From Escherichia phage vB_ESM-pEJ01: a stretch of 64,000 nucleotides of DNA. The notes beneath the pieces are model-generated. The model was given only the letters and a program-made list of their open reading frames with translations. It was not told where the DNA came from and made no database searches. The position numbers and the translations under genes are program-made. Of this stretch, positions 7,172 through 63,593 are shown piece after piece; within the stretch, counting starts at the first letter, position 1, and each line of letters begins with the position of its first letter. The DNA lies in the sequence record OP114734.1. The stretch is one strand, 5' to 3'.

Positions 7172-7366
7172 TTATACATTTTCAATCACCCATTGCAGAT
7201 GGGCTTCTGCGTCAACCAGTTCAGCGCGGCTTTTCTCTAAGCACTTGCTGTATTCTTTACGTTCCCAATCAGCAATTTCGTTTTTCAGGACTTCTTCATA
7301 GTAAGCAATTACGCCTTTCAGGTCTGAAACTTTACGGCTTGCCAGTTCGATGTAATGGTTACGCAT
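7172..7366 (-). CDS. hypothetical protein (64 aa)
   Basis: ORF downstream of a PeSL-like promoter. Confidence 0.4.
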   Translation of the reverse strand: MRNHYIELASRKVSDLKGVIAYYEEVLKNEIADWERKEYSKCLEKSRAELVDAEAHLQWVIENV

Positions 7367-7535
7367 TTTGATTCTCCTTTGTTACTAGATAACGAATTTG
7401 GTCTTGCATTGCGATCAGTTCCCAGCGTGCTACTTTCATCATGGAAACCGACTCTTTGAACATAATATTAGCCTTTTCCTTATTCCCTGTCAAGTAGATT
7501 TCTGCAATTTTCACAAAATTTTTGAGTTTCTTCAT
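7359..7535 (-). CDS. possible small ORF (58 aa), weak RBS
   Basis: Untracked ORF MKKLKNFVKIAEIYL...; no clear SD, so tentative. Confidence 0.2.
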   Translation of the reverse strand: MKKLKNFVKIAEIYLTGNKEKANIMFKESVSMMKVARWELIAMQDQIRYLVTKENQNA

Positions 7536-7581
7536 TCTTAAACGGTTTCATATAAGTCAACCTTTTGTTTTCGATGGGGAC

Positions 7582-7952: not shown

Positions 7953-7979
7953 TTATAGAGAATCTCCCTTGTATGTCAA
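7953..7979 (-). promoter_or_regulatory. early-type promoter cassette with GGGAGA/TCTCCC hairpin over -10
   Basis: TTGACA at 7979..7974, TATAAT at 7958..7953, 16-nt spacer. Confidence 0.55.
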
Positions 7980-8539
7980 CTAAAATTTAAAGATGCAAAC
8001 TCCCCGTGATGAATTTTTGCATATTCATCATATGCTCTAGCGGCTTCCTCCTGAGTAGCAAACGATCCTATGTATTTTCTGTATCCGTTTATCCTTATTT
8101 GTGCTTGCCACGGTCTTTTGCTAGATCCTTTGCGATGAGTAACACCATTATATATGCTCGTGCACCCGTCCATTTTCTTTTTATTGTACATGTTTTGTTG
8201 TTGTGTTGCCTCCCGTAAATTTGGTGGATTGTTGTTTTCTGGATTCCCGTCTATGTGGTCTATTACCTTAACCTGTGTTCCATATTCAAGAAACCAGACA
8301 ATTCTATGTACAAGATATGTAGATGTTCTCTTTTTAACCTTATTGTAAACATCTATTGCCAAATGACCGTAATTTAACTTTTTTGTTTTTACTTTATCAC
8401 CGACTCGGTAGAAATATCCCTCTGGTAGACCATTAAAAGACGGACTATTTGTTTTGTGATATAGAACACCTTCCGTGTGTTCAAATCTGCGTTTTAATTC
8501 CTCTTGAATTTCAGTATTCCAAAATTTCGCACTTTTCAT
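7976..8539 (-). CDS. HNH homing endonuclease with C-terminal AP2 DNA-binding domain
   Basis: HNH_3 motif VDHIDGNPENNNPPNLREAT; AP2-like YNGVTHRKGSSKRPWQAQIRINGYRKYIGSFATQEEAARAYD; free-standing between rIIA.1 block and topoisomerase gene. Confidence 0.8.
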   Translation of the reverse strand: MKSAKFWNTEIQEELKRRFEHTEGVLYHKTNSPSFNGLPEGYFYRVGDKVKTKKLNYGHLAIDVYNKVKKRTSTYLVHRIVWFLEYGTQVKVIDHIDGNPENNNPPNLREATQQQNMYNKKKMDGCTSIYNGVTHRKGSSKRPWQAQIRINGYRKYIGSFATQEEAARAYDEYAKIHHGEFASLNFS

Positions 8540-19941: not shown

Positions 19942-19970
19942 ATTTTACTACTTTAATTATTCTATGTCAA
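19942..19970 (-). promoter_or_regulatory. early-type promoter (-35 TTGACA, 17 nt, -10 TAAAAT)
   Basis: Overlaps stop of HNH gene; feeds ORF 19598..19915. Confidence 0.5.
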
Positions 19971-20706
19971 CAAATTTCCAATTTGGAAAGTCTGGACTCA
20001 TACAACGACGCCGAACGGTTCCGCGCTCGTTTCCTAGTACCTTAGATACTTCCGATACAGATTTATAAATCACACCATCAACAAATACAGCCTTTCGGTC
20101 TTTCCTGTTTTGGTTTTTGCTCTTTTCTCTTCTGGCTTCTACGTTATCCGAATCATTCCATTGTCTCTTTGCTGTCTCTCTGGAAGATATTGCCTTTTGT
20201 TCTTTAACAATATCTTTAACGAGTTGTTCTTGTCCTGTTATCTTCGCCCACACATTAACAGACTGGATAGCATTAGCCTCACTCATTCCCCAGCGTTTGC
20301 CGGATATATTCTTACGACGCACGCGTAGAAATTCGTTAAAGACTTCTTCGCATTGGTGCATATAATCACGAAATCCATATTTCTTAGCCCATGCCTCTTT
20401 AATTGCATCAGACATATTTTCGGCAATACGTCTACGCATCCATGCATACTCCTTATTATTGCGACCGTGACTGGTCATGCACATCATACGCGAAGCCATA
20501 ATAAGACCCACATGTTTAGGATACATTTTAGCTAAAAGTAGATGTGCTGTAAAGTGTTCCTCTGGAGTCAATGGAACGAGATTTTCGTGGTCATCGGTTC
20601 CACCCATACAACGTGGTTTAACGTGATGGATCTCTACATATCCGGTCGGCTTCTCGCGGGTTCTTGCTCGTTCAATCAATTTTTTGTAATGTGCTTTGTA
20701 GTTCAT
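19957..20706 (-). CDS. HNH homing endonuclease with C-terminal DNA-binding module
   Basis: HNH motif YVEIHHVKPRCMGGTDDHENLVPLTPEEHFTAH; start set at MNYKAH with GGAGGA RBS; inserted between uvsX and gene 40/41 block. Confidence 0.75.
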   Translation of the reverse strand: MNYKAHYKKLIERARTREKPTGYVEIHHVKPRCMGGTDDHENLVPLTPEEHFTAHLLLAKMYPKHVGLIMASRMMCMTSHGRNNKEYAWMRRRIAENMSDAIKEAWAKKYGFRDYMHQCEEVFNEFLRVRRKNISGKRWGMSEANAIQSVNVWAKITGQEQLVKDIVKEQKAISSRETAKRQWNDSDNVEARREKSKNQNRKDRKAVFVDGVIYKSVSEVSKVLGNERGTVRRRCMSPDFPNWKFVDIE

Positions 20707-20719
20707 GTGATCCTCCATA

Positions 20720-20744
20720 TGAAAAAGGGGCATAACGCCCCTTA
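20720..20744 (-). terminator. rho-independent terminator after uvsX
   Basis: AAGGGGC-ataac-GCCCCTT hairpin followed by TTTTTC on minus strand. Confidence 0.6.
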
Positions 20745-22089: not shown

Positions 22090-24768
22090 TTAAATGTCAA
22101 ACAGGTCCGTAAGCGATGCCACCTTTTCATATTGCAGCTTTGCAGCCGTGGTAATGTTCTCCAGTGGTTTGACGAAAGTCTTATTAAACAACAAAGGCCA
22201 GTCCAACCACTTCAACACCTCTGATTCAATTTCTGGAGGAATACGAGTACCAGACAACCAACCAAAACAGATTTCTCCAAACGGATTTCGATCTTTAAGC
22301 GGTACAATCATAACCTTCTCGCCTTCACGAATCGGATCTAGTCCGAATTTTCGAGCATTACGATTATAACACAATACACTCTTAACCGCATACGGACAAC
22401 CCTTAATCGGATACCCGTTTGAATCGCTGTATTTCTGTAGGTTGTTTGCAGATGATACCGCAGCAACATCAAGATAGTCAAGTTTTCTAAATTCTTGCTC
22501 AAAAATACCGTAGTATTCCTGCAATGACTCTTCACCTTCCTGCAACATACGGCGAATACATTCTTTCAGTGATTTCTGACATGCTTTAGGGGTGGAGCTA
22601 CGTTGCGTTTCCAAGCCCATGATTTTTAGCTTAGGTTCAGCAAAGCGCGTTCCTTCCATATCCCAAACATTAAGAGCATAACGCTTTTTGCCAGTCCAGA
22701 ATCCACCGATACCCGCAGATTTCAACGGAGGACCAGCAATTGCCTCACGGTCCATAAACATCAAGTGCTCATAGTTGTTCATGTACTCGCATAACTCGCG
22801 ATATCCCTTGTCGATAATAGGTTCCATTCGATGTTTACCGAAATTATCAAGGAAGTCAACAAGTTTTTCGGTATCGTCGAAACGATCTTCCCCGCCAACC
22901 TTATCAACAACATTGTTAACCAGCACATAAACGGAGTCAGTATCACAATAACGAACATATGCAAAATCGGTTGTTCCGCAAAGCTCGTTTAAGTATTCGT
23001 TAATCTTACGCTCAATCCACTGAATTGCAAGCTGACCGAACAGTGTGATCGCACTAGCGTTACGGAGATCATAAAAACGGAATTTAGGATTCCCCAACGC
23101 ACCATAAAGTGAGTTGATCAAAACTTTTCGAGAAAGCTGGTTTGTATTGCACAAGATCGACTCGTCTTTACATTCTTCCAGCAATTTCTCTAAGGTATCT
23201 TTGCTTAATTCAGAAAGCATCGATTTAAACGCTTCATCGAAGTCGTGACGCACTTCAACGCTATAGCTAATGGTTCCCCCATAAACATGATTTTCATCGT
23301 GTAGAATCGCTTTACATAGTTCAGCATTGCGATCACATGCCAACATCATGTTTTTGTACTGCTTACGCTGATCGAATACCTTTTTAATCTCAATCGGTAC
23401 GATACCATGAATATCTTTTCTATACATCCATCCGTTAGGCGAGCAAGAATACTCATCACTCGGACGTGGTGCAGTTTTATTGATATACTCGTGCATCGGT
23501 GCAGCATCAAAAGATCCAGCGATTGTTTCAGGAGAAATATTAACCTGTCGAATAATAGATGGGTACAGACTTGTTAAGTCAAAGCTCATCATCCAACGGT
23601 AAGCATTTGGCACAGGTTCTTTTACAAATGCGCCTGGATACGTCTGCTTAGGCTGTATCTTATTTTCCGGTACTACTTTACCCTCAGCTTTCAGAGATCC
23701 GAAGATAATAGCATCCCATACTTTCATCGGGTTATAAACATGGTTAAATTTAATCTTTGCATAGAAACATAGACTATACACAAGATCGATAAATCCACGC
23801 TTTTTATCAATCGCCAGCACACGATCAACGTCGCCGATGTTATAATCGATGTAAAGTTGATGGTTGTCATCACGCAATTTCTTTAACGGACCATCATAAT
23901 CAACCTTACCGATTCCTGTCTCATATTCAGCAACATAATCTAACGCATATGTTGGTTGAGTCGTAAAGCTAAATTTCTTGTACAGGTCAATATAATCAAG
24001 GCTTTCGATCCCCATGATCGTAAATGCTTCACGCTCGTTGCCAAAATCATCCTGTGAGATTCTGGATTTAATCTTACCGCACGGGCTTAGACGGTTAGCG
24101 GTTCTACTTCCGAACTTATTACTGATACGTTTAATGATATATGGAATATCGAATGTTTCTGTGTTCCAGCCAGTGAAACCAACGGGTCGGTTTTCCTCAA
24201 AGAATCGGATGTATTCTAACAGCAATTCATCTTCTGTGTCATAGACGTTATAAACAACGCGCTCTACAATATCAGGTCGAAGAATAGACTTGCTTGCTTC
24301 CCAGATTTCACCGTTTTTTCCTTTCAAATCAAATACAAAGAAACGATCATGTACGGAATCATAATGCGTAATTGCATCGATAGGATATTTCGCTTCTTCT
24401 GGTTTAGGAAATTCTGGGGCAGTGACCTCAATATCAACCCATGCTACACGGATTTTATTTCGGTCATATCGAATCTCGCCTTTATACGTATCAGACAGAT
24501 AGGAGATGATAAAATCATCCATCCCTAGTGCCTCCTGCCCCATTTCTCCCATCTTTTTACGCCATTTGTTGGCCTCGTTCATAGATGGGAATTTTTTAGC
24601 AATGCAAGGCTTGCCATAGATATCTTTATAATTCGTAACCATACCAGGCGCGGCATGATGAAATAATGTTGGCGTATATTCAACGTAACGCTCTTGTTCT
24701 TGTCCAGCATCATCAATATAACGCTCGTAGATCTTATCACCTACTCGCTCACATGACAGAAAATACAT
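22090..24768 (-). CDS. 43: DNA polymerase (family B, T4 gp43 homologue)
   Basis: Exo and pol motifs (DIEVT, YGDTDS, KKRYA, SLYPSII); start set to ATG MYFLSC.. with GAAGGAG RBS (track start 24798 is GTG inside leader). Confidence 0.9.
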   Translation of the reverse strand: MYFLSCERVGDKIYERYIDDAGQEQERYVEYTPTLFHHAAPGMVTNYKDIYGKPCIAKKFPSMNEANKWRKKMGEMGQEALGMDDFIISYLSDTYKGEIRYDRNKIRVAWVDIEVTAPEFPKPEEAKYPIDAITHYDSVHDRFFVFDLKGKNGEIWEASKSILRPDIVERVVYNVYDTEDELLLEYIRFFEENRPVGFTGWNTETFDIPYIIKRISNKFGSRTANRLSPCGKIKSRISQDDFGNEREAFTIMGIESLDYIDLYKKFSFTTQPTYALDYVAEYETGIGKVDYDGPLKKLRDDNHQLYIDYNIGDVDRVLAIDKKRGFIDLVYSLCFYAKIKFNHVYNPMKVWDAIIFGSLKAEGKVVPENKIQPKQTYPGAFVKEPVPNAYRWMMSFDLTSLYPSIIRQVNISPETIAGSFDAAPMHEYINKTAPRPSDEYSCSPNGWMYRKDIHGIVPIEIKKVFDQRKQYKNMMLACDRNAELCKAILHDENHVYGGTISYSVEVRHDFDEAFKSMLSELSKDTLEKLLEECKDESILCNTNQLSRKVLINSLYGALGNPKFRFYDLRNASAITLFGQLAIQWIERKINEYLNELCGTTDFAYVRYCDTDSVYVLVNNVVDKVGGEDRFDDTEKLVDFLDNFGKHRMEPIIDKGYRELCEYMNNYEHLMFMDREAIAGPPLKSAGIGGFWTGKKRYALNVWDMEGTRFAEPKLKIMGLETQRSSTPKACQKSLKECIRRMLQEGEESLQEYYGIFEQEFRKLDYLDVAAVSSANNLQKYSDSNGYPIKGCPYAVKSVLCYNRNARKFGLDPIREGEKVMIVPLKDRNPFGEICFGWLSGTRIPPEIESEVLKWLDWPLLFNKTFVKPLENITTAAKLQYEKVASLTDLFDI

Positions 24769-39080: not shown

Positions 39081-39629
39081 TTATTTTAAATTTTTTCGAA
39101 TGTATTCAGACCATTCCTTCCCTGTCATTTCGGACCCGTTCTGGAAACTGAAATATTCATACGGCATCGAGTCAAGATAAAACAGGATCATACATCGCGC
39201 CATATAATACCAATCACGATTAAAGTAAACTACGTTATCACCAGTACCATCAACCCCTTTATCATAACCATCGCGGGTACGGGCGACCCATTGAATAGTA
39301 TCATTTTTCTCGCGGATCGTAACAGGTTCCCAATATCCAGCACATCCAGCATGACCACACGAACAAGTCAGGAAATATTGACCTTTTGCTTTGTTGTCAT
39401 CCCATTCACGATGGATTGGTTCGATCTCGTGAAACAGTGCTAAGCAATCATGATTATGCAACACTGGCTTACCATCAATCAATGCATGGAATGTATACAA
39501 ACGACCAGTAGACAAATAGCTATCCTCACGCTCAACCAGTTCAATAGCAATCTTTTTAGCTCGTTCTTTGTGTCGTTGTGCTTTACGCTTACGGTTTAAT
39601 GATTTCATATTCACCTCACACATTATCAA
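39081..39629 (-). CDS. hypothetical protein with Cys/His cluster (182 aa)
   Basis: CSCGHAGCAGY motif. Confidence 0.4.
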   Translation of the reverse strand: MIMCEVNMKSLNRKRKAQRHKERAKKIAIELVEREDSYLSTGRLYTFHALIDGKPVLHNHDCLALFHEIEPIHREWDDNKAKGQYFLTCSCGHAGCAGYWEPVTIREKNDTIQWVARTRDGYDKGVDGTGDNVVYFNRDWYYMARCMILFYLDSMPYEYFSFQNGSEMTGKEWSEYIRKNLK

Positions 39630-40036
39630 AGGTCGCGATATAGTACATTATGAAAATGAGAACTTGCATTACCAATATTGTAGATAATAAATTCTTCATC
39701 CGGCGCTTGCGCTACAAATTGAGTATGAGCAACCGCCACAACCTTAAAAATACGATCCGTGATCTTGTGTTTAATTTCGGCTCCTACTTCCATAGGAACA
39801 TATTCATGTGTTTCTGTTTCAGTCGCAAAACAGCCATCTTCTTCATAAGCACGAACAAATCGATCGCAATCAGTACGCTTAACAAATTCAAGAGTATACA
39901 ATTCTCGTGAATTGTCGGTATAGACTAATACAGAATTATTCTGATAGCGAATCACATACAGGTTATTATCATCGTCAATTACGCAAAAGCTACGGATTTG
40001 TGTTCCTTCGCCTTTACTCCAGCAGATATTAACCAC
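39626..40036 (-). CDS. hypothetical protein (136 aa, GTG start)
   Basis: AGAGGA RBS before GTG; overlaps ORF 39979..40173. Confidence 0.4.
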   Translation of the reverse strand: MVNICWSKGEGTQIRSFCVIDDDNNLYVIRYQNNSVLVYTDNSRELYTLEFVKRTDCDRFVRAYEEDGCFATETETHEYVPMEVGAEIKHKITDRIFKVVAVAHTQFVAQAPDEEFIIYNIGNASSHFHNVLYRDL

Positions 40037-40173
40037 AGTTCCTCTAATAAAAAACTTTCCTTTAAATTAAAACTAGCCAATGTGCTAGCGTGCATTTTAA
40101 CAACAACACCATCGCCAATTTCCAGTTTACGAAGTTTAACTTCTTTGCTCAGTACACAAAACATCATCATCAT
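39979..40173 (-). CDS. hypothetical protein (64 aa)
   Basis: Has its own PeSL-like promoter and conserved leader CACATCGAAAACAACGAGAGGA before ATG. Confidence 0.4.
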   Translation of the reverse strand: MMMMFCVLSKEVKLRKLEIGDGVVVKMHASTLASFNLKESFLLEELWLISAGVKAKEHKSVAFA

Positions 40174-45379: not shown

Positions 45380-45673
45380 TTAACCATTAATCTTGTTTTT
45401 GACTACAAAGGATCTGAACTCATCAAAACCACCTATATAATCACCATTATAGAAAATCTGCGGCATGGTGGCAATAACTTCTACCCCTGCGCGATCCTGA
45501 ATGTCGGCAATGATAGAATCAATCTTTACCGGACGACCGTTTTCGTCTACACCATCATTAACCGGAATGTAGATGTAAGGGATCTTACGCGATTCACAAA
45601 GGCGCTTTGCATTCTGGCAATACTTACAGTTGTAACCTTCAAAACCAAAAATTTCTACCATGTTATACCTCAT
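45380..45673 (-). CDS. nrdC: glutaredoxin (NrdC-like)
   Basis: CKYC active site, TMPQIF..G..IGGFD block as in T4 NrdC. Confidence 0.75.
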   Translation of the reverse strand: MRYNMVEIFGFEGYNCKYCQNAKRLCESRKIPYIYIPVNDGVDENGRPVKIDSIIADIQDRAGVEVIATMPQIFYNGDYIGGFDEFRSFVVKNKING

Positions 45674-46418
45674 TCAGTTCTATATCAAGTTCATTTTCAA
45701 TAATATAGGCATTAACTGCCCGTGCCGCATCATCTTCTGTGTCAAATCTTCCTATATACACACCGCGAACTTTAGCACCGTAATTACCTTGTTTTGGTAC
45801 TTTGTAAACGTATCTATGACGGGAACTTGCTGCTTTTTGGAGCTTCTTGCCATATTCAGACTTTGCATATTCTATATCATCAATCTCGTTTATACAAGAC
45901 CTATCACCAAAATGTTTCAACGCTGCAAGATTATATGCATAAGCCGCACCGATCTCGGAGGGAAAATATCCTAAATGTATAGACTTCCCATCCAACATTA
46001 TTGCACCAGTCCAATAACCTTTATTCTTATTAAACGACACACCTTTATACTTCGAATATGTTTTGCATTTGGTCTTGCTCATATTCATATTATTTTGTTT
46101 GCTTGTCGTCTCTCTAAGGTTTTCAATGCGGCTATTATAACGATCTCGGTCTTTATGATCTATATACTTAGGACAATGACCATGAAACATATGATAGATA
46201 ACACGGTGCATACGTTCGTATCGCTCGCCAGTCCATACAATACGATACCCATCGGGGGTATCACTTCCAGCTAATCCGTTTATAACACCTTTTCGGTGCG
46301 GGTGAATCTTCCACCTAAGAAAACCATCATCATAATAAAACCGTGAATGATATAAATCATACAAACGTTTATCTTCTGGAGTCTTGTGTATAACCTCATA
46401 TTTTAACATTGGTGACAT
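45663..46418 (-). CDS. HNH homing endonuclease with two AP2 domains
   Basis: IDHKDRDRYNSRIENLRETT (HNH_3); YKGVSFNKNKGYWTGAI and YGAKVRGVYIGRFDTEDDAARA (AP2). Confidence 0.8.
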   Translation of the reverse strand: MSPMLKYEVIHKTPEDKRLYDLYHSRFYYDDGFLRWKIHPHRKGVINGLAGSDTPDGYRIVWTGERYERMHRVIYHMFHGHCPKYIDHKDRDRYNSRIENLRETTSKQNNMNMSKTKCKTYSKYKGVSFNKNKGYWTGAIMLDGKSIHLGYFPSEIGAAYAYNLAALKHFGDRSCINEIDDIEYAKSEYGKKLQKAASSRHRYVYKVPKQGNYGAKVRGVYIGRFDTEDDAARAVNAYIIENELDIELNEV

Positions 46419-59810: not shown

Positions 59811-60404
59811 TTAAACGTATTCAGCAACAACATTATGTTTAAAATTACCGCTCCTTTTTGGATTTGGATTTTTCAATCGACTATGTATTAAATTTTTGTT
59901 GTATCCGGTTGCTTTAGACGCTTCGCCAATACTTTGATAAACAACACCATTAACACGAATCGGACGAGACTTATTAAACAGTTTATTCAATCCGGCATCA
60001 TATGCATGGTTTTGGTTTTCTTGCCTCGTTGCGATCTCAAGATTCCAAACACAATTACAAGATTTTACCCCACTTTTATGATTAATTTCAAGACCTTCAC
60101 AATCACCTATAAAGTGTTCAGCAACTAGTCTATGAATATAGCGATATTTCTTACTTTCCCCATCATGCAAGCATACATTATAATAACCATCACCAGCGCG
60201 TTTAGGTCGGAGTAGTTTACCTTTAACACGTTTTATAGTAGGGAACTCACCAAATTGATTTCTCTGGATAAACGGAATCTCGCGGTCTAATGAACGGATT
60301 CGACCATAGTTAGACACTTGATAAAAACTTTCATATCCTTTAATTGGCTTCCATATCTCAGGGATTTCTACACCATCAATAACAACAAGTTTAAATTCTT
60401 CCAT
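59811..60404 (-). CDS. HNH homing endonuclease (NUMOD4-like N-terminus + HNH_3)
   Basis: YQVSNYGRIRSL; HRLVAEHFIGDCEGLEINHKSGVKSCNCVWNLEIATRQENQNH. Confidence 0.8.
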   Translation of the reverse strand: MEEFKLVVIDGVEIPEIWKPIKGYESFYQVSNYGRIRSLDREIPFIQRNQFGEFPTIKRVKGKLLRPKRAGDGYYNVCLHDGESKKYRYIHRLVAEHFIGDCEGLEINHKSGVKSCNCVWNLEIATRQENQNHAYDAGLNKLFNKSRPIRVNGVVYQSIGEASKATGYNKNLIHSRLKNPNPKRSGNFKHNVVAEYV

Positions 60405-60452: not shown

Positions 60453-60866
60453 TTACATAGATTCCGTAAAGGTACGGGTGATAATATCAAGTTGTTGTTC
60501 GCGTGTCAAGGCGTTGAAGCGGGTAGCATAACCACTGATTCGAATTGTAAGCTGCGGGTACTTCTCAGGATGTTCAACCGCATCAAGAAGAGTCTCCCGA
60601 CGCAGTACATTCGCGTTGAGATGATGACCCGCGTTACTATTTACCCCGTTATCAATTGCTAAAGGACGGAAGCTAGTTGTGTGCAGTTCCAGCGAATCGA
60701 CGTCTTCTGCGGTGATCACATGATCTTCTGCGAAAGTTTTACTAACAATTACTTTAGCGCCGATCAGTGCTTTCGGTTCGGATACCAGAATCATAGGCGC
60801 GAAATGTCCACCGATAATAGTACCTTTATGCTCACCTTTCATGATTTGAATTGCTTTAAATTCCAT
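60453..60866 (-). CDS. autonomous glycyl radical cofactor (GrcA/YfiD-like, PFL C-terminal domain)
   Basis: C-terminus [44 protein letters not shown] is nearly the GrcA/PflB glycyl-radical signature (RVSGYAVRFNSLT..). Confidence 0.75.
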
Positions 60867-61555: not shown

Positions 61556-62130
61556 TTATTTTGGATCTGGGAAATTCAATAGAGCATATTCTCCATAAAA
61601 TTTCCTAGCTGCATTATCATAAGCGATTGCAGCTTCGATTTCTGTGTCATATTGTCCAAGAACATGTCTTTGTAGGTTGACCATTATACTAGCTCTCCAT
61701 TTCTTACGCAAATCCTTCCTGTTACACTTACTAACACCCTTATACACACTAGAAAACTTTTAGACTTCTTCTTTCTATTATGTTGATTTTGCGCGTCGGT
61801 TGCCTCCATAAGATTTGGAGGATTGTTATTAGCAGGATTACCGTCAATATGATCAATTAATCTAACTTGCGTCCCATGTTCTAGAAACCAAACAACCCTA
61901 TGCACGAATAGATGAACTCTAGGAAGACCGTCATCTCTACTATGCCAAAATCTAAGATGACCATCTTTATTTGTTCTGACTTTAACTAAATCGCCGTGTT
62001 TATATCTACTCCCTAATGGTCGTCCTTTGATAGCTTTACTATCGACTCTATAATATAAGATACCCTCTATATGAGCATATCTAAGTTTTATCTCGTTTTG
62101 TAGGGATTCATCCCAATATTTAAAAGCCAT
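61556..62130 (-). pseudogene. HNH-AP2 homing endonuclease gene disrupted by frameshift
   Basis: HNH part (61684..62130, VHRVVWFLEHGTQVRLIDHIDGNPANNNPPNL) and AP2 part (61556..61747, YKGVSK..AAIAYDNAARKFYGEYA) lie in different frames and overlap by 64 nt; intact paralogue at 7976..8539. Confidence 0.6.
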
Positions 62131-62175
62131 TTTATAATCCTCACAAAGCCAGCGATTAAGCTGGCTTTATTTTAG

Positions 62176-62565
62176 TTATACCGGGTCTGGATATACCTTT
62201 TTATCGAGTTCCATATGCGGTCCGTCTTTAAAAGTAACCCAATCAACACCGCAGATAACAGGAACACCCAATTCTCGACCAGCTTGTTTAAATGCATCAG
62301 CGATCATGCGGTAATATTTCATGTTCCATGTATCCTTATCTTTCGGATACGCTACAACGTCAACCGCGAAACCGTGAAGATGACGAGATTTCATAGTCTT
62401 AGATTTACCTTCCGCAACATATTTCTTTTGCGTTTCTAGACTACGCACACCTTCCGTAATACCAAAATCGACCGGAGTCAGTTCTAATGCACGATGAACG
62501 ACTTTTACCAGGTCTGGATGTACACCAACAAGCCGATCTTTGCTTCTTTGAGATAATTTAAACAT
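62176..62565 (-). CDS. endolysin, L-alanyl-D-glutamate peptidase (peptidase M15-like)
   Basis: Zn-binding H/D/H arrangement SRHLHGFAVDV ... DGPHMEL typical of M15/VanY-type phage endolysins. Confidence 0.7.
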   Translation of the reverse strand: MFKLSQRSKDRLVGVHPDLVKVVHRALELTPVDFGITEGVRSLETQKKYVAEGKSKTMKSRHLHGFAVDVVAYPKDKDTWNMKYYRMIADAFKQAGRELGVPVICGVDWVTFKDGPHMELDKKVYPDPV

Positions 62566-63369: not shown

Positions 63370-63593
63370 AGAAAGCCCTCCAGTGAGCTAATTTAGTGCG
63401 GGTAGTACATTACCCTACCCGTATTGTTAATCATCGCAGAGCTTCTTCTAGCGCGATCCAAAACCATCCACAAACAACGCCCATACAGACAGCTACAAGA
63501 AGATTCATTCTCTCTTTAGGGATCATTGCAATCATAACAACAACCATACAGAAAGCCACATTACCATTGAAGTTAACATTTGTTCAACCATTA

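What the first reader, a model, noticed from the sequence alone, without database searches (positions are those of the whole stretch)
61556..62130. Frameshifted HNH-AP2 endonuclease gene
The HNH domain (61684..62130) and the AP2 domain (61556..61747) of one homing endonuclease are in different reading frames with a 64-nt overlap, while an intact paralogue exists at 7976..8539. This is either a decaying homing endonuclease gene, a sequencing indel, or a recoding site.
Basis: seen in the sequence. Interest (0 to 1): 0.4.

Follow-up and report, generated by a model that had tools for sequence, protein, structure and literature searches.

The report
Homing endonuclease gene broken by one-base deletion
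A known kind of selfish phage gene (an HNH-AP2 homing endonuclease next to the lysis enzyme gene of an RB49/JSE-like coliphage) is split in this genome by the loss of one A from a run of five, which is either ordinary gene decay or a base-calling error, not a recoding signal.

Summary
ORF 61684..62130(-) carries the HNH_3 nuclease motif. ORF 61556..61747(-) carries an AP2 DNA-binding domain. They lie in different frames and overlap by 64 nt.

The window is a Krischvirus (RB49/JSE-like T4-type coliphage). Thirteen GenBank phage records (12 genomes) and one metagenome contig carry the same gene as a single intact 576-nt ORF (191 aa). The window has 575 nt, because an A5 run (TCT AAA AAG TTT) is A4 at 61758-61761, codons 124/125. 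No other record shares this deletion or the nearby substitution R108M.

The site has no slippery heptamer and no downstream RNA structure, and no relative has the two-frame arrangement. Programmed recoding is therefore rejected.

The gene belongs to the described HNH-AP2 class of free-standing homing endonuclease genes of T4-related phages. It sits in a 685-nt cassette inserted into the 3' end of the endolysin gene in 13 of 58 Krischvirus records.

Without reads I cannot tell a real mutation (about 55%) from a homopolymer base-calling error (about 40%). The window holds three other private frame disruptions, all in small accessory genes. Interest is low and the gene class is already known.

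The parts
61556..62130 (-). Whole HNH-AP2 homing endonuclease gene, 575 nt here and 576 nt (191 aa) in all orthologues
   Evidence: Alignment with KMB43, G2248 and JSE. Six intact orthologues compared. PHROG phrog_99 'HNH endonuclease' E 1.4e-43 for the intact form.
61684..62130 (-). ORF1 of 148 aa: native residues 1-124 with the complete HNH_3 motif (75-116), then 24 out-of-frame residues
   Evidence: The invariant H93, N105 and N114 of the motif lie upstream of the shift.
61556..61747 (-). [quoted passage not shown] The mechanical start is a GTG with no Shine-Dalgarno sequence upstream, so it is probably not translated on its own.
61758..61761 (-). Lesion: an A4 run where every orthologue has A5 (TCT AAA AAG TTT becomes TCT AAA AGT TTT), at codons 124/125
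   Evidence: column 370. In one search all 13 records span 121 nt against the window's 120.
61807..61809 (-). Codon 108 is ATG (Met) where all orthologues have AGG (Arg). It lies in the NLREAT stretch of the HNH_3 motif. The G to T change is at 61808 and is private to the window.
   Evidence: (no record is 100% identical over 61765-61885). Arg is conserved in the four HNH-AP2 members aligned.
61572..62256 (-). HEG cassette: the 685 nt present only in HEG-carrying genomes, replacing 65 nt of the endolysin 3' end of HEG-less genomes
   Evidence: Alignments of HEG+ (window, JSE) with HEG- (RB49, FL20). The length difference is about 621 nt.
62176..62256 (-). Alternative endolysin tail brought by the cassette (...ICGVDWVTFKDGPHMELDKKVYPDPV* against ...EWGGDWTSFKDGPHLQLPHSKYPDPK* in HEG-less phages). 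It is the probable cleavage-immune version of the target.
   Evidence: identity is about 99% up to column 344 and then diverges sharply. The immunity role is inferred.
62145..62168 (-). GC-rich hairpin between the endolysin stop and the HEG Shine-Dalgarno sequence (GAGG) and start codon
   Evidence: It is annotated as a putative terminator in G2248.
61556..61571 (-). Relic of the original endolysin 3' end (CCCAGATCCAAAATAA, coding PDPK*), now used as the last codons and the stop of the HEG
   Evidence: identity with HEG-less genomes resumes here.

Best explanation
This is the JSE-type HNH-AP2 free-standing homing endonuclease gene of Krischvirus phages. It lies in a 685-nt cassette inserted into the 3' end of the endolysin gene. 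When intact, the 191-aa protein joins an I-HmuI-like HNH nuclease module to a C-terminal AP2 DNA-binding domain. By inference, it cuts the endolysin/vs.8 junction of HEG-less co-infecting phages, so that repair copies the cassette together with its cleavage-immune endolysin tail. In this genome one A has been lost from an A5 run in the linker between the two domains. Translation gives an HNH-only protein of 124 native and 24 junk residues, and the AP2 domain is stranded in the -1 frame without its own ribosome binding site. I take the deletion as most likely a genuine mutation, which makes this an early stage of homing endonuclease gene decay. Shown: the gene identity, the lesion, that no other record shares it, and the cassette boundaries. 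Inferred: the cleavage target, the loss of activity, and that the deletion is biological rather than a base-calling error.
For: The lesion is located by orthologue alignment. All 13 phage records and the ENA contig L012 have the intact ORF. A second private change, R108M, lies 47 nt upstream at a residue conserved in the HNH-AP2 subfamily. The six intact orthologues show 7 synonymous and 1 non-synonymous change, so the gene is under purifying selection elsewhere. The window copy has 0 synonymous changes, 1 non-synonymous change and the frameshift. The window has four private frame disruptions, at about 7508, 40055, 61758 and 63557. All are in genes of 200 aa or fewer, although genes over 200 aa hold half of the coding DNA and half of the homopolymers (p about 0.06 under random error). 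One of the four is a TG duplication and one is a 2-nt loss, neither of which is a typical single-base homopolymer miscall. The gene is present in 13 and absent from 45 of 58 Krischvirus records, as expected for a mobile element that can be lost.
Against: No reads are available. Three of the four private disruptions are homopolymer contractions, the classic signature of 454, Ion Torrent or Nanopore consensus errors. The A4 allele is seen in no other assembly. Another record of this genus (TB34) clearly carries many homopolymer errors, so such errors are common in this data class. The p of about 0.06 and the single R108M change are weak evidence.
Confidence: 0.55

Rival explanations
1. Sequencing or assembly artefact. 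The phage really has A5 and an intact 191-aa endonuclease gene, and the consensus under-called one base in the homopolymer.
For: The lesion is a 1-nt contraction of a homopolymer. It appears in no other record. Two further private disruptions in the window are also homopolymer contractions: T7 to T6 at about 40055 and A6 to A4 at about 7508. The T6 allele recurs in four unrelated-looking records (MIZ2, MIZ3, MIZ6 and phiS), as a recurrent miscall would. Records of this genus such as TB34 show many such errors.
Against: A5 is a short run and is rarely miscalled by Illumina. A private substitution (R108M) lies next to it, and substitutions are uncommon consensus errors. No frameshift hits any gene over 200 aa despite equal homopolymer content. 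One private disruption is a TG dinucleotide gain, which is not a homopolymer error.
Confidence: 0.4
2. Recoding. A programmed -1 ribosomal frameshift (for example P-site slippage on U_UUU_C at 61752-61757), or transcriptional slippage, joins the two ORFs and yields a full-length enzyme at a set ratio.
For: A -1 slip of tRNA-Phe from UUU to the overlapping UUU is sterically possible. It would give ...KSKSFSSVYKGV..., one residue different from the wild type, and the next 0-frame codon CUA is rare in E. coli (read from the sequence).
Against: The 0 frame has no X XXY YYZ heptamer. The 96 nt from the site onward fold worse than shuffles (z = +1.43, 190 of 200 shuffles fold at least as well). Every orthologue is a plain single ORF with identical flanking sequence, so nothing here was selected as a frameshift signal. 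A4 and T4 runs are far too short for RNA polymerase slippage (established knowledge).
Confidence: 0.02
3. Functional split. The HNH-only 148-aa product has its own role, for example as a non-specific nickase or a dominant regulator, and the truncation is adaptive.
For: The complete HNH_3 motif is retained upstream of the shift.
Against: The allele appears in a single genome. R108M hits the motif itself. The 24-residue out-of-frame tail is arbitrary. No other record shows a stand-alone version.
Confidence: 0.03

Closest known systems
HNH-AP2 free-standing homing endonuclease genes of T4-related phages (RB49 ORF040c, JSE, RB43, RB16). Described by Nolan et al. 2006 (PMC1524935) and Petrov et al. 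2010 (PMC2993671, Table 5: JSE has 2 HNH-AP2 genes). The AP2-HNH class itself is cited there to Magnani et al. 2004.
   Same: The domain order is the same, HNH_3 followed by AP2. The gene is 99.5-100% identical in nucleotides to JSE gene EpJSE_00105 and its orthologues. It is free-standing and sporadically distributed among close relatives.
   Different: The window copy is split by a 1-nt deletion and carries R108M. All other copies examined are intact.
I-HmuI (PDB 1u3e), the HNH homing endonuclease of Bacillus phage SPO1
   Same: The N-terminal region and HNH motif (residues 44-124) match I-HmuI residues 25-105 (phmmer E 0.005).
   Different: In the crystal structure as I recall it, the I-HmuI DNA-binding C-terminus is a helix-turn-helix module, whereas here it is an AP2 domain. 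I-HmuI is intron-encoded (own knowledge), and this gene is free-standing.
Intronless homing by T4 seg and mob endonucleases (for example SegF/gp56 and MobE/nrdB).
   Same: The endonuclease gene sits beside a conserved gene. HEG-carrying and HEG-less genomes differ sharply in the adjacent roughly 80 nt of that gene and are nearly identical further out, the pattern expected from cleavage-site immunity plus co-conversion.
   Different: Neither cleavage nor homing has been tested for this gene. The nuclease and DNA-binding families differ from Seg (GIY-YIG).
Plant AP2/ERF DNA-binding domains (WRI1 7wq5, AtERF1 1gcc)
   Same: Residues 125-188 align to them (E 1.4e-9 to 1e-3).
   Different: Here the domain is fused to a nuclease in a phage. 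It is not a transcription factor.

Membership tests
HNH-AP2 homing endonuclease (free-standing, T4-related phages) | HNH (beta-beta-alpha-metal) nuclease motif with its conserved His and Asn residues | tested here: met
   Pfam HNH_3 E 2e-10, 40.5 bits against a cut-off of 24.8. H93, N105 and N114 are invariant in the family alignment. All lie upstream of the frameshift.
HNH-AP2 homing endonuclease (free-standing, T4-related phages) | C-terminal AP2 DNA-binding domain | tested here: met
   Pfam AP2 scores 27.7 bits, below the gathering score of 33.3. phmmer to solved AP2/ERF domains gives E 1.4e-9.
HNH-AP2 homing endonuclease (free-standing, T4-related phages) | Both domains in one polypeptide | tested here: not met
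   The domains are split into two frames in the window. The feature is met in all 13 orthologous records and in L012. The window copy is therefore a disrupted member.
HNH-AP2 homing endonuclease (free-standing, T4-related phages) | Sporadic presence or absence at one locus among near-identical genomes | tested here: met
   13 of 58 Krischvirus records carry it and 45 have the empty site. The junctions are defined.
HNH-AP2 homing endonuclease (free-standing, T4-related phages) | Site-specific cleavage of the HEG-less allele and unidirectional transfer in mixed infection | not testable with these tools
   This needs an in vitro cleavage assay and phage crosses.
Programmed -1 ribosomal frameshift site | Slippery heptamer X XXY YYZ in the 0 frame within the overlap | tested here: not met
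   The 0-frame reading is UCU AAA AGU UUU CUA GUG. No heptamer is present, only a single-tRNA U_UUU slip site.
Programmed -1 ribosomal frameshift site | Stimulatory RNA structure 5-9 nt downstream | tested here: not met
   The minimum free energy is -10.9 kcal/mol against a shuffle mean of -14.85, z = +1.43.
Programmed -1 ribosomal frameshift site | Two-frame arrangement conserved among homologues | tested here: not met
   All orthologues are single ORFs. The paralogues at 7976..8539 and 45663..46418 are also single ORFs.
Pseudogene by homopolymer indel | Intact orthologues, with the lesion confined to a homopolymer | tested here: met
   A5 to A4.
Pseudogene by homopolymer indel | The lesion is present in the DNA molecules and not only in the consensus | not testable with these tools
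   No reads are available. The A4 allele is absent from IMG/VR, JGI metagenomes and the protein collection. The A5 allele is also absent from IMG/VR and JGI, so those two scans are uninformative.

The most novel reading that the evidence does not exclude
The A4 allele is real, and a low-level -1 P-site slip on U_UUU_C, helped by the rare CUA codon that follows, restores a trickle of full-length endonuclease differing from the wild type by K125S. The phage would then keep a strongly down-tuned, less toxic homing activity rather than none. This would be a 'leaky pseudogene' stage in the homing endonuclease life cycle.
Probability: 0.02. Interest if true: 0.35.

Novelty: already known. Interest (0 to 1): 0.1.

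Why it matters
It matters little beyond annotation. The two ORFs should be annotated as one disrupted HNH-AP2 homing endonuclease gene, or corrected if reads show A5. They should not be annotated as two genes or as a recoding site. If the deletion is real, this genome shows the first step of homing endonuclease gene decay in a lineage where the same gene is otherwise under purifying selection. The locus is also a clean example of intronless-homing anatomy: the cassette carries a replacement tail for the endolysin gene.

Tried and rejected
1. Exact-pattern scans for the A4 and A5 alleles in IMG/VR and JGI metagenome contigs found neither allele. They say nothing about allele frequency.

2. An exact-product look-up of the 148-aa ORF1, and of the 64-aa fragment of the other broken gene, found nothing. 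The source genome of the window is not in that collection, so no independent assembly could be compared.

4. The window genome is not in the phage collection at 99% identity or above; the best match over 24 kb is about 97%. No sequencing-technology metadata could be recovered.

5. TB34 was fetched as a second reference, but it is itself riddled with homopolymer under-calls, with split topoisomerase, uvsX, gp43 and gp47 genes. I used it only to polarise indels together with PTE-Eco09.

6. The two genes are only 47% identical in protein, and blastn of a 120-nt stretch of this gene found only its own orthologues.

7. Recoding was considered and rejected, for the reasons given in the membership test.

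8. I did not run the large protein searches or a structure prediction. The answer did not depend on them.

Full report
**Observation.** The mechanical ORF list shows 61684..62130(-) of 148 aa and 61556..61747(-) of 63 aa. They are in different frames and share 64 nt. Pfam assigns HNH_3 to the first (E 2e-10, above the cut-off) and AP2 to the second (E 3.4e-6, 27.7 bits, below the gathering score of 33.3). The ORF at 7976..8539(-) has both domains in one 187-aa protein.

**Where the window comes from.** A 1.1-kb query around the finding matches 58 Krischvirus records (RB49/JSE-like T4-type coliphages of E. coli and Shigella). Thirteen match end to end at 97.9-99.3% identity. The other 45 match in only two pieces and lack about 621 nt. 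Over 24 kb the best identity is about 97%, so this exact genome is not in the collection.

**The lesion.**
- In KMB43, G2248 and JSE the same place holds one annotated 576-nt gene, labelled 'homing endonuclease', 'putative HNH endonuclease' or 'hypothetical protein'.
- The four-way alignment is identical apart from four single-base substitutions, one of them in the window, and one gap. Where the relatives read TCT AAA AAG TTT TCT, the window reads TCT AAA AGT TTT CT.
- The A5 run is thus A4, at 61758-61761 on the - strand, codons 124/125.
- A 120-nt query across the site matches all 13 records over 121 nt, so none shares the deletion.
- The window also has AGG to ATG (R108M, G to T at 61808). 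No record shares this either.
- Arg at this position (NLREAT) is conserved in the four HNH-AP2 proteins aligned.

**Selection.** Six intact orthologues (JSE, KMB43, G2248, PTE-Eco09, TB34 and an ENA metagenome contig, L012) differ from their consensus by 7 synonymous changes and 1 non-synonymous change. The window copy has no synonymous change, one non-synonymous change and the frameshift. The gene is therefore kept under purifying selection elsewhere, and the window copy looks released from it, or mis-read.

**What the gene is.**
- The intact protein matches phrog_99 'HNH endonuclease' (E 1.4e-43).
- Residues 125-188 match solved plant AP2/ERF domains (WRI1 E 1.4e-9).
- Residues 44-124 match the HNH homing endonuclease I-HmuI (E 0.005).
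- HNH-AP2 genes are a described class of free-standing homing endonuclease genes in T4-related phages. Nolan et al. 2006 note them in RB49 and RB43 (PMC1524935). Petrov et al. 2010 count two in JSE (PMC2993671, Table 5).
- The frameshift falls in the Lys/Ser-rich linker after the complete HNH motif (75-116). ORF1 is therefore a nuclease module without its DNA-binding domain, plus 24 junk residues.
- ORF2's mechanical GTG start has no Shine-Dalgarno sequence.

**Anatomy of the mobile cassette.**
- I aligned HEG-carrying genomes (window, JSE) with HEG-less ones (RB49, FL20). The endolysin genes are about 99% identical up to 27 codons before the stop and then diverge sharply.
- Identity resumes only at CCCAGATCCAAAATAA. 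In HEG-less phages these are the last codons and the stop of the endolysin gene (…YPDPK*). In HEG-carrying phages they are the last codons and the stop of the endonuclease gene (…NFPDPK*).
- The cassette is therefore window 61572..62256 (685 nt), replacing 65 nt.
- It brings an alternative endolysin tail (62176..62256), a GC-rich hairpin (62145-62168), a Shine-Dalgarno sequence and the endonuclease ORF.
- This is the layout expected for intronless homing: the target lies in the neighbouring conserved gene and the donor carries a diverged, presumably uncleavable version. That the endolysin 3' end is the cleavage site is an inference.

**Recoding.**
- To rejoin the frames a ribosome would have to slip -1 between the -1-frame UAA (in UCUAAA) and the end of ORF1.
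- The 0 frame (UCU AAA AGU UUU CUA) has no X XXY YYZ heptamer. Only a single-tRNA slip on U_UUU is conceivable.
- The 96 nt from the site onward fold less stably than shuffled sequence (z = +1.43).
- The flanking sequence is identical in relatives whose gene is a plain single ORF, so it cannot have been selected as a frameshift signal.
- Runs of four are too short for polymerase slippage (established knowledge).
- I put recoding at about 2%.

**Real mutation or base-calling error?** I compared the whole window with PTE-Eco09 and TB34. Besides the target there are three more frame disruptions in the window.
- A6 to A4 at about 7508 breaks a 64-aa gene. No record shares the A4 allele; two (JEP8 and AV108) span one base fewer than the rest, which suggests A5.
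- T7 to T6 at about 40049-40055 splits a conserved 182-aa gene. Four of 57 other records appear to share T6.
- A TG duplication at about 63557 truncates a 52-aa membrane protein. No record shares it.

Three of the four window disruptions are homopolymer contractions, which points to sequencing error. TB34 shows that such errors occur in records of this genus.

On the other side:
- All four lie in genes of 200 aa or fewer, although genes over 200 aa hold half of the coding DNA and half of the runs of 5 or more (122 against 125). Under random error p is about 0.06.
- One disruption is not in a homopolymer, and one is a 2-nt loss.
- The target carries an adjacent private substitution.

I estimate a genuine mutation at about 55% and an artefact at about 40%. 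Only reads or re-sequencing can decide. Exact look-ups for the A4 allele and for the truncated product in other collections found nothing. The controls for A5 in IMG/VR and JGI were also empty.

**Verdict.** The finding is real and correctly read, but it is ordinary. A known HNH-AP2 homing endonuclease gene carries a one-base homopolymer deletion seen in no other genome. It should be annotated as a disrupted gene, or corrected if reads show A5, and not as two genes or as a recoding site. Novelty: already known. Interest: about 0.1.

Noticed in passing
window 39626..40173 (-), run at about 40049-40055: A conserved 182-aa hypothetical gene (phrog_14838; PTEEco09_103, TB34TRB_199) is split into 64-aa and 136-aa ORFs by T7 to T6 on the coding strand. 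53 of 57 Krischvirus records have T7. MIZ2, MIZ3, MIZ6 and phiS appear to share T6 and are annotated as two proteins. This is either an indel-prone site or a recurrent miscall.
   Followed up: partly
window 7359..7551 (-), about 7508: A 64-aa gene downstream of the HNH-AP2 paralogue has A4 where nearly all relatives have A6. The normal ORF stops after 23 codons, and an out-of-frame ATG gives a 58-aa product with the same C-terminal 46 residues. No record shares A4. JEP8 and AV108 span one base fewer than the other records, which suggests A5.
   Followed up: partly
window 63431..63591 (-), about 63557: A 2-nt TG duplication (ATGTGG against ATGG) truncates a 52-aa small membrane protein gene (PTEEco09_048) to 19 codons. 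None of 58 records shares it.
   Followed up: partly
window 7976..8539, 19957..20733, 45663..46418, 59811..60404 (all -): Four more free-standing homing endonuclease genes lie in the window, each absent from PTE-Eco09. They are an HNH_3+AP2 gene after topoisomerase gp39, an HNH + I-TevI-type DNA-binding gene next to uvsX, an HNH_3+AP2 gene of 251 aa between dam and nrdC, and a NUMOD4+HNH_3 gene between nrdC.11 and the GrcA-like vs.6. With the target that makes five in 64 kb.
   Followed up: partly
L015 2093-2620 and L016 3-527 (ENA metagenome contigs): A different endonuclease gene (175 aa, NUMOD4 + HNH_3) occupies the same endolysin/vs.8 junction in other Krischvirus-like contigs, with slightly different boundaries. 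The endolysin 3' end looks like an insertion hot spot for at least two HEG families.
   Followed up: no
OZ035808.1 'Krischvirus RB49' against NC_005066 RB49: The record named Krischvirus RB49 (162,105 bp) carries the intact HNH-AP2 gene at this locus, and the RB49 reference genome does not. The two 'RB49' records are therefore not the same strain at this site.
   Followed up: no
L005 6289-10080 (PTE-Eco09) against window 22090..24768: The DNA polymerase gp43 of PTE-Eco09 is annotated as two CDS separated by about 1.2 kb holding small ORFs. The window has a single 892-aa ORF. This looks like an insertion that splits gp43 in that relative.
   Followed up: no
window 60453..60866 (-): vs.6 is a 137-aa GrcA/YfiD-like stand-alone glycyl-radical domain (…[11 protein letters not shown]…; Pfam Gly_radical in the neighbours' gene calls). 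By my recollection it is the counterpart of T4 Y06I.
   Followed up: no
L006 and L007 (OX001802.1, TB34): The TB34 record has many single-base homopolymer deficits relative to both the window and PTE-Eco09. These split the topoisomerase, uvsX, gp43 and gp47 genes. It is probably an unpolished long-read assembly and a poor reference.
   Followed up: partly
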